Origin: Laetmonice hystrix
Lineage: Eukaryota
Length of the DNA: 64,000 nucleotides
Assembly: GCA_965235115.1 (NCBI GenBank)
Contig: OZ249446.1
Span: forward strand, 2,356,001-2,420,000
Reading direction: 5' to 3'
Every line of letters begins with the position of its first letter. Position 1 is the stretch's first letter. Made by a program: the position numbers. Below are positions 61,701-64,000 of this stretch, one piece after another.

Positions 61701-64000
61701 GTGTTTTTTGTTTGTTTTCATCTGTAAATCCTCCTTCATGTCATTTTCCTCAGAAGGTAGATCTCCACCTCGTCATCGTTTATTATTTCGGAAAATGCCG
61801 GGGTTGGAATGCCAAACGAATGCGCTATGTCCGCCATGATGGATTTTGACAAACGCTGTCCACAAACCGCCATCGACTTCGGTACTACCTTCGGGAACCA
61901 TCTTCGCAAACACCGCGTTTGCAGTGGATCATAGGGGCAAAATTTTACTGTCGCGAAGTGCCGTTTCGGGGCGTTCCCGAAGTCCCGCTCCCGAAGTACT
62001 TCGGCAGCGGGACTTCGGGAGCTGCTTTCTCATAGTGGAGCATAGGCATTAGTATGGGACGTTTGGGACTGCAAACAGGGGACAATGTCTTCAGGAGCAA
62101 TGCCAGGGGTCTTCAGCCATGGATGACCTTTTAGTTCAAAGATCAAAGGAATGGGGGTGTCACATCGAAAACTGACCCCCGTGGTAAATTGACCCTCGGG
62201 TCACTTTTCCACAGTGAAAAAGTGACCCTCCCTGTGGTGATCTGACCATCAAGAAAAAGTTAAGACATTTCTTGTTCTGTTTATTTTTTATATTTATGGA
62301 AAGGATACAAAAGGATGTTTTTGTTCACATGTCGTACTCAATTTGTCAATCTGCGCAATTTGCAAAAACTGTTAAATCAAATAGACCTAACCCTAAACTT
62401 ACCTTCACCCTAACCGAGGGGCGTATAGGTAGCACCCGTATCTGCTGGTTTGCCCTTTTAAACTTGCGCAAGTCGCGAAAGTGAGTACTGCTAAACAGGT
62501 GTCAAAACTGTTGAAAAATACCAAGAAGCAGGAAAATGACGATAGATTACGTAAAGACGTTATGCCTAATATCTATGTTATACAACCTGGTTCATTTTTC
62601 CACAGGGGAGGTCACTTTTCCACTGTGGTAAAGTGACCCGGAGGTCGATTTACCACATCCCACCGGCCCAGGCCTGTCGTCTTTGTAACCTTGAATCCAC
62701 AACTGGTGACTAGAGCCCTCACTCTAAAACTGATCGCCTTTCCTTGAAAGGGGCATATTATGAGGAAACGTGAAAAATCGGTATTTCAAAGAACTTTTGC
62801 TGTTTTCATAAAGAGATCCTTCATTAATATTGCTTGGTAAACAAAGACAGACTTATCAGTTTCATTTTGTGTGAGAAATCGAAGTTTATGAAGCTTCCTT
62901 GCCCGCTTTTCTGCCGATTTCGTAAAATATTTTTTAGGTGGCATTCTGATGCCGGACGATCGAGTGCAACTGCTGAATTGTTTACAACTAAGCGAAGCAC
63001 GTGACTAAGCACATGCAGAGAGTGCACACGCAGGATGTGACACAGTATGCAATTACATGGGTTGATGGGAGGTTGTCTATGGCAAATTATGGCGGGAGAT
63101 GTGCTATCGGGAGAAATCTATAGGTTTGGTCGTATAGAACCTACTTGTGCTGCATACGCAGCGAAAACACGTCGGAGGACAAAATGCTGTGGTAGGATTA
63201 TTTACTTGGATCCCTAGTACACGGTCATGTTGGGTTTTTGCCGGAGATCCTCCAAAACGTGTTTTATAGCATGCCCCTTTAATCTATAATATACATTTCC
63301 TGATTTAAACCCTCGTGGACTGATTTTCCTTGTGACCTGTTCTACAATTGTAGATCTTGGTGTCTACCCACGATTGTAGAGTCTATAGAAAAGTACCGGG
63401 TTTATGTATGGCTAATTCTTGAAACCAACTATATTTTGTTGCCACCTGCCGCAGGGTGCCAGGAATGTGACCTGTGTGTTTTGTTGCATGTTGCCACCTG
63501 TCGCAGGGTGCCAGGAATGTGACCTGTGTGTTTTGTTGCATGTTGCCACCTGCCACAGGGTGCCAGGAATGTGACCTGTGTGTTTTGTTGCATGTTGCCA
63601 CCTGCCACAGGGTGCCAGGAATGTGACCTGTGTGTTTTGCTGCATGTTGCCACCTGTCACAGGGTGCCAGGAATGTGACCTGTGTGTTTTGTTGCATGTT
63701 GCCACCTGCCACAGGGTGCCAGGAATGTGACCTGTGTGTTTTGTTGCATGTTTCCACCTGCCACGGGGTGCCAGGAATGTGACCTGTGTGTTTTGTTGCA
63801 TGTTGCCACCTGTCGCAGGGTGCCAGGAATTCGACCTGTGTGTTTTGTTGCATGTTGCCACCTGTCGCAGGGTGCCGGGAATGTGACCTGTGTGTTTTGT
63901 TGCATGTTGCCACCTGTCGCAGGGTGCCAGGAATGTGACCCGTGTGTTTTGTTGCATGTTGCCACCTGTCGCAGGGTGCCAGGAATGTGACCTGTGTGTT

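What the first reader, a model, noticed from the sequence alone, without database searches (positions are those of the whole stretch)
63435..64000. ADH structural-zinc exon start amplified as a satellite; each decoy spells a full Cx2Cx2Cx7C
Seen: with the phase-1 G from 61222, a decoy reads G-C-Q-E-C-D-L-C-V-L-L-H-V-A-T-C-R-R-V-P-G-M-stop. The intron-derived part supplies a fourth Cys at exactly seven residues. There are 11 copies in the window, one lacking the AG. Established: Cx2Cx2Cx7C is the MDR structural zinc site. Inference: the repeat identifies exon 3 beyond the window. The complete spacing may be coincidence, but decoy splicing would give a truncated zinc-binding product.
Basis: partly seen in the sequence, partly recalled or inferred. 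Interest (0 to 1): 0.65.

Follow-up and report, generated by a model that had tools for sequence, protein, structure and literature searches.

The report
Splice-junction minisatellite in ADH-like gene
A 52-base tandem repeat in an intron of an alcohol-dehydrogenase-like gene copies the intron's end plus the first codons of the next exon at least eleven times, an oddity already described in lancelets under the name "mirage".

Summary
A 52-bp tandem array (63437 to the window end, 10 full copies plus one cut copy, 95% alike) lies in intron 2 of an MDR zinc alcohol-dehydrogenase-like gene. Each unit has a 29-nt intron tail ending in AG (10 of 11 copies) and 23 nt that read GCQECDLC in the phase left open by exon 2. 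Exon 1, exon 2 and those 8 residues align back to back with residues 1-63, 64-103 and 104-111 of a full-length homologue. All 8 homologues that extend past exon 2 continue with CxxCxxC at that point. So the unit is an amplified intron-2/exon-3 junction, not a chance satellite.

This kind is already in print: "mirages", tandem repeats spanning exon-intron boundaries in lancelet genes, reported not to disturb splicing. The same window holds a second acceptor-side case whose last copy runs into a real Patched-like exon, and a donor-side candidate.

The fourth Cys is intron-derived and cheap, because 19% of the unit's codon positions are Cys. Every decoy readable to its end stops after 22 codons, so decay of the transcript is more likely than a truncated zinc-binding protein.

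The true exon 3 beyond base 64000, RNA evidence and the organism could not be checked.

The parts
60370..60559 (+). Exon 1 of the MDR/ADH-like gene. It runs from ATG at 60370 (a second ATG lies at 60385) to a phase-1 G at 60559, followed by donor gtacaa. It holds the CHTD motif.
   Evidence: Sequence. ORF. ADH_N hit below cut-off, E=0.017. BLASTP residues 6-63 against P0011 1-63, E=8e-12.
60560..61093 (+). Intron 1 (gt...cccacag).
   Evidence: Sequence. Its ends are fixed by the contiguous alignment of exons 1 and 2 to P0011.
61094..61222 (+). Exon 2. It encodes ...DAYVGVTPGHEAAGVIESFGGKARPSDYDLSIGDRVCIYPWL plus a phase-1 G at 61222, followed by donor gtacgt.
   Evidence: Translation. ADH_N 25.2 bits against cut-off 23.5, E=2e-5. 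BLASTP against P0011 64-103, E=2e-14. 11 MDR-like hits in the representative search.
61223..63436 (+). Unique part of intron 2. It holds transposon-like inverted repeats, for example 57-nt arms at 62181-62237 and 62600-62656, and 35-nt arms at 61257-61291 and 62017-62051.
63437..64000 (+). 52-bp tandem array of 10 full copies plus one 44-nt copy, running off the window end. Each unit is a 29-nt intron tail (pyrimidine-rich, ending CAG) plus 23 nt that match the start of exon 3.
63453..63454 (+). First of the acceptor-like AG dinucleotides. They recur every 52 nt up to 63973-63974 and are present in 10 of 11 copies.
   Evidence: Pyrimidines at -23..-4 number 13-14 of 20, the same as four other acceptors in the window.
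63765..63766 (+). Copy 7 has GG in place of the AG.
63831..63832 (+). Copy 8 has a two-base change that turns the second Cys codon into Phe and removes the TGA that ends the reading started in copy 7.

Best explanation
The array is a 'mirage'-type minisatellite. A short segment spanning the intron-2/exon-3 junction of an MDR zinc alcohol-dehydrogenase-like gene was duplicated in tandem. It holds about 29 nt of intron tail with its AG, plus at least 23 nt of exon start. It was then expanded to at least 11 copies by slippage or unequal exchange, in a genome that makes minisatellites at very high density.

Shown: the array itself, its position in the intron after exon 2, and the match of its exon-like half to what homologues encode at exactly that place. 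A sister case in the same window, whose last copy continues into a real exon, is also shown.

Inferred: the authentic exon 3 follows the last copy, beyond base 64000. The spliceosome uses that last AG because only it is followed by the rest of the exon and its donor. Any use of an upstream decoy gives a frameshifted message that stops after 22 codons and is removed by nonsense-mediated decay. The array is therefore a tolerated by-product, not a device. The fourth Cys in the decoy reading is a coincidence of a TG-rich unit.
For: The array is real and local.

Exon 2 is an ADH_N exon above Pfam's cut-off.

The three window segments align back to back to P0011: residues 1-63, 64-103 and 104-111. 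The decoy also aligns to P0015 residues 49-56.

Of the 14 proteins with E<=0.001 in the representative search, 3 repetitive ones were dropped as spurious and 11 are MDR-like. Of those 11, 8 extend past the exon-2 match. All 8 continue with [G/S]CxxCxxC at once, and 7 of the 8 have the fourth Cys after 7 residues.

GC..C..C occurs 0 times outside the array in six frames.

The decoy acceptors look as good as four other acceptors in the window.

In-window precedent: a 57-bp array at 31757-32661 carries 15 decoy copies of ggccggcag|ATTTTC. A 16th, slightly diverged copy is the acceptor of exon 32656-32817. That exon matches the last transmembrane segment of Patched/NPC1 profiles (TIGR00918 positions 1098-1127 of 1145, E=1.2e-3; PDB NPC1L1 and PTCH1 C-terminal helices, E=0.02-0.06).

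Minisatellites cover 26.4% of the window in 32 arrays.

Literature passages read: tandem repeats spanning exon-intron boundaries in amphioxus Adh3, globin, TnC and PGBD5 are called mirages. Units are 10-160 bp, many but not all keep AG/GT, and they do not interfere with splicing (PMC3087553; PMC3902484).
Against: The authentic exon 3 was not seen, because the window ends inside copy 11.

There is no RNA evidence of any kind.

The gene's own protein was not found in the protein collection. Three word-index searches with single exons gave nothing. The closest relatives, P0003 and P0016 (81% identical), are ORF fragments that end at the same exon boundary, so no close full-length model shows the real exon 3.

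The alignment of the exon-like part is only 8 residues long (E about 6e-4 for a single comparison).

The organism is not identified by any tool, while mirages are described in print only for lancelets.

The splice-choice and decay steps are inference.
Confidence: 0.8

Rival explanations
1. The gene is dead or broken at this point. The array is what remains of the exon-3 start, and no intact exon 3 follows, making this a pseudogene or a disrupted allele.
For: The real exon 3 is unseen. No annotated full-length protein of this gene or of a close relative turned up. The 81%-identical relatives are fragments only.
Against: Exons 1 and 2 are open, keep the CHTD and GHE motifs, and have canonical splice signals in matching phase. 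The sister array at 31757-32661 sits in front of an intact exon. Published mirages sit in expressed genes.
Confidence: 0.1
2. The decoys are used and matter. Either the array works as a set of competing acceptors that divert transcripts into unproductive splicing to tune expression, or, it yields a truncated zinc-binding protein.
For: 10 of 11 copies keep AG, and their pyrimidine tracts equal those of real acceptors. 8 AG-bearing copies spell Cx2Cx2Cx7C.
Against: Every AG-bearing decoy that can be read to its end (9 of 9) stops after 22 codons. The product would be roughly 130 residues of an incomplete GroES-like domain. Cys is 19% of the unit's codon positions, so the spacing is cheap. The tail does not align to homologues. 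The passages read say mirages give no aberrant mRNAs. Variants among copies show no sign of protein-level constraint: copy 8 lost a Cys and copy 7 lost its AG.
Confidence: 0.05
3. It is a chance resemblance: an unrelated intronic minisatellite that happens to read CxxCxxC after an AG.
For: Minisatellites are everywhere in this window (32 arrays). The unit is TG-rich and therefore Cys-rich.
Against: GC..C..C occurs 0 times outside the array, and C..C..C only 8 times in about 127,000 codon positions. The motif is in the one phase left open by exon 2, directly after an AG. It aligns to the residues that follow the exon-2 match in the homologues.
Confidence: 0.03
4. The locus is real but the copy number or order of units is an assembly product.
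For: PMC3087553 notes that one globin mirage was aberrantly assembled in the draft genome. Arrays with 95% identical 52-bp units are hard to assemble.
Against: Copies carry ordered variants: a block with C.A in copies 3, 4, 6 and 7, and a consensus block in copies 8-11. This is not what a collapsed or stuttered assembly usually gives. This rival changes the count, not the nature of the feature.
Confidence: 0.15

Closest known systems
'Mirage' minisatellites of the amphioxus Adh3 gene (Canestro, Gonzalez-Duarte and Albalat 2002, Nucleic Acids Res 30:2871). The paper is not held and is known here only through passages in PMC3087553 and PMC3902484.
   Same: Tandem repeats that span an exon-intron boundary and so multiply a splice site. 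The unit size of 52 bp falls within the 10-72 bp quoted for Adh3. The host gene is again a zinc alcohol-dehydrogenase superfamily member.
   Different: This is a different gene. Its relatives are nearest to Sulfolobus-type tetrameric ADHs (P0011 against 1nto/1jvb, E about 1e-34), not class III Adh3. The organism is not identified here. Splicing, somatic instability and polymorphism, all shown for Adh3, are untested here.
Mirage in amphioxus globin gene BflGb6 (PMC3087553; abstract and passages read).
   Same: The same architecture: the 3' end of an intron plus the 5' part of the next exon repeated in tandem upstream of the authentic junction. Many but not all units keep the AG.
   Different: The globin units are 150-160 bp with 3-6 copies. 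Here the unit is 52 bp with at least 11 copies. The globin edge copies were seen and RT-PCR showed normal splicing. Here the edge copy lies beyond the window.
Tandem repeats over splice sites in lancelet PGBD5 and TnC (PMC3902484; passage read).
   Same: Duplicated 5' or 3' splice sites inside tandem repeats, tolerated by the gene.
   Different: The PGBD5 repeats are 60 and 108 bp, few and imperfect. This array is long and 95% homogeneous.
Intron gain by tandem duplication of a segment holding a proto-splice site (the Rogers model, as cited in PMC3087553).
   Same: A duplicated junction supplies extra splice signals that could one day define a new exon or intron.
   Different: By eye I found no convincing donor site in the 52-bp unit. 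The unit length is not a multiple of three, and every decoy reading hits a stop, so no new exon is in sight.
MDR zinc-dependent alcohol dehydrogenases (Pfam ADH_N and ADH_zinc_N).
   Same: Exon 2 passes the ADH_N cut-off. The CHTD and GHE motifs and the start of the Cys-rich lobe are present.
   Different: Only about 106 residues of the protein lie in the window. The Rossmann domain and the genuine fourth Cys are unseen.

Membership tests
Mirage minisatellite (tandem repeat spanning an exon-intron boundary, as defined in PMC3087553) | Head-to-tail array with a minisatellite-size unit | tested here: met
   Period 52, 10.8 copies, 95% matches. Copies laid in register.
Mirage minisatellite (tandem repeat spanning an exon-intron boundary, as defined in PMC3087553) | The unit holds the end of an intron with its splice signal plus the adjoining part of the exon | tested here: met
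   An intron tail ending CAG is followed by 8 codons that align to P0011 104-111 and P0015 49-56, directly after the exon-2 match. In copy 1 the intron tail is continuous with unique intron sequence. The exon identity rests on homologues, not on the gene's own exon.
Mirage minisatellite (tandem repeat spanning an exon-intron boundary, as defined in PMC3087553) | Many but not all units keep the AG/GT signal | tested here: met
   10 of 11 copies have AG.
Mirage minisatellite (tandem repeat spanning an exon-intron boundary, as defined in PMC3087553) | The edge copy is the authentic junction and continues into the rest of the exon | not testable with these tools
   The window ends inside copy 11. 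No collection on hand holds this genome.
Mirage minisatellite (tandem repeat spanning an exon-intron boundary, as defined in PMC3087553) | Regular splicing is not disturbed | not testable with these tools
   No transcript data are available.
Mirage minisatellite (tandem repeat spanning an exon-intron boundary, as defined in PMC3087553) | Length instability or polymorphism between haplotypes | not testable with these tools
   Only one haplotype is available. Blocks of shared variants fit turnover but do not show it.
Mirage minisatellite (tandem repeat spanning an exon-intron boundary, as defined in PMC3087553) | The host is a lancelet, the only taxon for which the term is in print in the library searched | tested here: inconclusive
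   No tool named the organism. Cluster look-up gave no names, Rfam gave 0 matches and the tRNA scan gave 0. An intermediate-filament exon and a Patched/NPC1-like gene point to an animal. The 26% minisatellite content fits lancelets only by recall.
MDR zinc-dependent alcohol dehydrogenase | GroES-like ADH_N domain | tested here: met
   Exon 2 scores 25.2 bits against cut-off 23.5. Exon 1 scores 15.8 bits, below the cut-off. Contiguous alignment to P0011, which itself has ADH_N and ADH_zinc_N.
MDR zinc-dependent alcohol dehydrogenase | Catalytic-zinc motifs: Cys in CHTD and His in GHE. Their roles are recalled, not tested. | tested here: met
   Both motifs are read in exons 1 and 2 and are aligned to the same motifs of P0011.
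MDR zinc-dependent alcohol dehydrogenase | Structural-zinc lobe Cx2Cx2Cx7C | tested here: inconclusive
   The first three Cys are seen only in the repeat copies. The genuine fourth Cys lies beyond the window. 7 of 8 homologues have the full spacing.
MDR zinc-dependent alcohol dehydrogenase | Rossmann-fold ADH_zinc_N domain | not testable with these tools
   It would lie beyond base 64000.
Satellite DNA (a repeat family dispersed or massed at many loci) | The same unit is present at other loci | tested here: not met
   0 matches to either half of the unit outside 63437-64000 at up to 3 mismatches. This covers this window only. The rest of the genome is untested.

The most novel reading that the evidence does not exclude
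Splice-junction minisatellites may not be accidents in this genome. They could arise preferentially at exon boundaries, and their decoy sites could be used at a low level. That would give decay-coupled damping of expression and a standing supply of proto-exons and proto-introns. With two supported cases and one candidate in a single 64-kb window, and at least 10 competent-looking acceptors here, this locus would be a sharp test case.
Probability: 0.1. Interest if true: 0.6.

Novelty: new member of a known kind. Interest (0 to 1): 0.3.

Why it matters
The finding adds one more gene, and up to two more in the same window, to the short printed list of 'mirage' loci. It also shows how dense they can be where minisatellites fill a quarter of the sequence.

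For annotation it is a practical warning. Arrays of perfect decoy splice sites can break gene models, and this gene's protein was not found in the protein collection searched.

For splicing biology, such loci are natural experiments. Ten or more identical acceptors in a row are distinguished only by what lies downstream.

For intron evolution, they are the raw material of the duplication model of intron gain.

Nothing here calls for a new mechanism.

Tried and rejected
Word-index protein searches with single exons found nothing: exon 2, exon 1 and a Patched-like exon. So neither the gene's own protein nor the organism could be identified.

Cluster look-up of seven homologues gave no names.

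The exon-2 search of solved structures gave only weak ADH matches, best E=0.2.

Rfam gave 0 matches and the tRNA scan gave 0.

The open frames on the minus strand of the array gave only sub-threshold Pfam matches, with no stretch passing on its own. I read them as an effect of a stop-free repeated unit.

The candidate exon 22150-22261 found no family in any of three searches: PDB 0 matches, Atlas no usable hit, NCBIfam 0. Its exon status therefore rests on the open frame, the splice signals and its position in the gene.

A possible fourth case was rejected. The 42-bp, 40-copy array at 29157-30816 ends 10 nt before the acceptor of exon 30827-30974. Its unit is no more similar to that junction than shuffled sequence is (score 12, null mean 12.0).

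I considered recursive splicing or 23-nt micro-exons. By eye the unit has no convincing donor, and neither 23 nor 52 is a multiple of three, so I rejected this by inference only.

The founding paper (Canestro 2002) is not held.

The supplements of PMC3087553 (mirage alignments and trees) are closed and were not seen.

The joined exon model was not built, searched or folded.

Full report
**What is there.** From 63437 to the end of the window runs a head-to-tail array with a 52-bp unit: 10.8 copies, 95% matches, no indels. In register it is 10 full copies and one 44-nt copy cut by the window end. The window holds no N. Each unit has two halves. One is a 29-nt pyrimidine-rich stretch ending CAG. 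The other is a 23-nt stretch that reads, after that AG, as the start of a coding exon. At up to 3 mismatches the 23-nt half occurs 11 times and the 29-nt half 9 times, both only inside the array, with 0 matches expected from shuffles. Ten of 11 copies keep the AG, and copy 7 has GG.

**The gene around it.** On the + strand lies the 5' part of an MDR zinc alcohol-dehydrogenase-like gene.
- Exon 1 is 60370-60559, ending in a phase-1 G followed by gtacaa.
- Exon 2 is 61094-61222, starting after cccacag and ending in a phase-1 G followed by gtacgt.
- Exon 2 alone passes Pfam's ADH_N cut-off (25.2 bits against 23.5). Exon 1 scores below it.

I searched the model exon by exon. The joined protein was not built, searched or folded.

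**Homologues of exon 2.** A full HMMER pass over 1.84 billion representatives with exon 2 gave 14 proteins at E<=0.001.
- Three are long repetitive proteins matched in 11-13 short stretches. I set them aside as spurious.
- Eleven are MDR-like.
- The best of these (P0003, 81% identical; its cluster mate P0016) is an ORF fragment from a megabase contig. It ends at the same place, with PWHG followed by letters that fit a gt-start intron. The intron position therefore seems shared with a close relative.

**Is the repeat the exon-3 start?** BLASTP places exon 1 residues 6-63 on P0011 residues 1-63 (E=8e-12). It places exon 2 on residues 64-103 (E=2e-14). It places the first 8 residues of the decoy reading (an unbroken window stretch, 63454-63519) on residues 104-111, GCQECDLC against GCQDCSIC (E=6e-4). 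P0015 gives 6 of 8 identities at the same place. The three pieces are thus contiguous on a full-length relative that carries both ADH_N and ADH_zinc_N and whose nearest solved structures are Sulfolobus-type ADHs (E about 1e-34).

Of the 11 MDR-like hits, 8 extend beyond the exon-2 match. All 8 continue at once with [G/S]CxxCxxC, and 7 of the 8 have a fourth Cys seven residues on. As a control, C..C..C occurs only 8 times outside the array in the six-frame translation of the window, and GC..C..C never.

**The fourth Cys and the 'truncated zinc-binding product'.** The alignment to homologues stops after the third Cys. The decoy tail VLLHVATC lacks the Gly that 6 of 8 homologues have three residues after the third Cys. 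But Cys occupies 10 of the unit's 52 codon positions (19%) against 3.6% in the whole window. A Cys at a given spot is therefore roughly a one-in-five event.

The full Cx2Cx2Cx7C is spelled by 9 of 11 copies, 8 of them with the AG. Copy 8 has Phe for the second Cys and copy 11 is cut. All 9 AG-bearing decoys that can be read to their end stop after 22 codons. Since 52 is not a multiple of three, no number of extra copies gives an open reading. A message spliced to a decoy would carry an early stop far upstream of the remaining exons. I infer decay rather than a stable product.

**It is a known kind.** Tandem repeats that span an exon-intron boundary were named 'mirages' in the amphioxus Adh3 gene. 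PMC3087553 (abstract and passages read) describes the same architecture in globin gene BflGb6: the 3' end of an intron plus the 5' part of the next exon. It quotes Adh3 units of 10-72 bp, notes that many but not all units keep AG/GT, reports regular splicing and length instability, and proposes them as a route to new introns. [quoted passage not shown] The supplements with the mirage alignments are closed. My searches found no genome-wide survey of mirages in the held library. That is a statement about those four searches only.

**The same thing twice more in this window.** Minisatellites (period >=10, >=3 copies) cover 16,923 of 64,000 bases (26.4%) in 32 arrays.

Case 1 is a 57-bp array at 31757-32661. 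It carries 15 copies of ggccggcag|ATTTTC. A 16th, slightly diverged copy is the acceptor of exon 32656-32817. That exon matches the last transmembrane segment of Patched/NPC1 (TIGR00918 positions 1098-1127 of 1145, E=1.2e-3; NPC1L1 and PTCH1 C-terminal helices, E=0.02-0.06). It belongs to a Patched/NPC1-like gene whose other exons match in the right order. The unit shares at least the first 6 exon bases. A longer gapped similarity is not significant (7% of shuffles reach it). This is the picture inferred for the ADH-like array, with the edge copy in view.

Case 2 is a 63-bp array at 22246-22890. It repeats CGTCAACACTGTTACT|gtaaggcgagt ten times (the tenth copy is diverged). The first copy is continuous with an open frame that has a good acceptor at 22149/22150. 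This would be a donor-side mirage, but the 37-residue exon found no family.

A third neighbour is not a mirage. The 42-bp array ends 10 nt before exon 30827-30974, and its unit does not resemble that junction.

**How it most likely works.** Birth is by slippage or unequal exchange in a minisatellite-prone genome. The unit's left edge shares a short TTTTGTTGC-like stretch with the unique flank, which would suit slippage. This is inference.

Persistence follows because the decoys do little harm. Their AG and pyrimidine tract are as good as those of four other acceptors (13-14 of 20 pyrimidines). The choice of the last AG must therefore come from outside the unit, namely from the exon body and donor that only the last copy has. 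Leaky use of decoys would be cleared by decay. None of this is shown here.

**Chance placement.** My rough arithmetic, not a tool result: founder units make up about 3% of the non-array sequence. A few tens of splice junctions in the window would then give one or two junction-spanning arrays by chance, against two or three seen. No special mechanism is required, and none is excluded.

**What stayed unchecked.**
- The sequence beyond base 64000, and hence the real exon 3.
- Any transcript evidence.
- Polymorphism of the array.
- The organism. An intermediate-filament exon and the Patched/NPC1-like gene point to an animal.
- The closed collections.

**Verdict.** The feature is a new member of a known, rarely reported kind.

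Noticed in passing
window 31757-32661 and exon 32656-32817 (+): A 57-bp array carries 15 decoy copies of an acceptor (ggccggcag|ATTTTC). Its last, diverged copy is the real acceptor of the exon for the final transmembrane segment of a Patched/NPC1-like protein. This is a second acceptor-side mirage, with the edge copy visible.
   Followed up: yes
window 22246-22890 and putative exon 22150-22261 (+): A 63-bp array repeats the last 16 exon bases plus a gtaagg donor ten times. The first copy is continuous with an open frame. The first decoy donor (22325) would add 63 nt in frame without a stop, since ORF 21977-22357 runs through it. 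The exon found no family.
   Followed up: partly
window 29157-30816 and exon 30827-30974 (+): A 42-bp array of 40 copies ends 10 nt before the acceptor of a Patched-like exon (TIGR00918 positions 1004-1050, E=1.1e-5). Its unit does not resemble the junction.
   Followed up: yes
whole window: 32 minisatellite arrays (period >=10, >=3 copies) cover 26.4% of the 64 kb, about one every 2 kb.
   Followed up: partly
window about 20001-33400 (+): A Patched/NPC1-like gene has exons matching sterol-sensing and Patched/NPC1 profiles in order: 20001-, 24094-, 24876-, 25265-25516, 30827-30974 and 32656-32817. Its introns hold at least seven arrays.
   Followed up: partly
window 52077-52331 (-): An open frame matches the start of the intermediate-filament rod (Pfam Filament positions 4-60, E=1.1e-5, below the cut-off for a whole protein). 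It points to an animal genome.
   Followed up: partly
window 61257-62051 and 62181-62656 (+), inside intron 2: Two transposon-like elements are bounded by inverted repeats, with 35-nt arms at 77% and 57-nt arms at 88%, plus nested palindromes rich in CCCGAAG.
   Followed up: no
window 33279-33412 (+): A 33-bp repeat (4.1 copies, 95%) lies inside open frame 33035-33385, in frame, and encodes GQRTSYPPGP-like units. It may be a coding minisatellite in the tail of the Patched-like gene. Pfam found no family.
   Followed up: no
proteins P0003 and P0016: Two ORF fragments from megabase contigs of unnamed source are 81% identical to exon 2 and end at the same point. This suggests that a paralogue or orthologue has the same phase-1 intron there.
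   Followed up: partly
window 15225-15974 (+): A 249-residue open frame is rich in DRYPDR and RS-like repeats and overlaps 30-87-bp arrays. It has no Pfam family.
   Followed up: no
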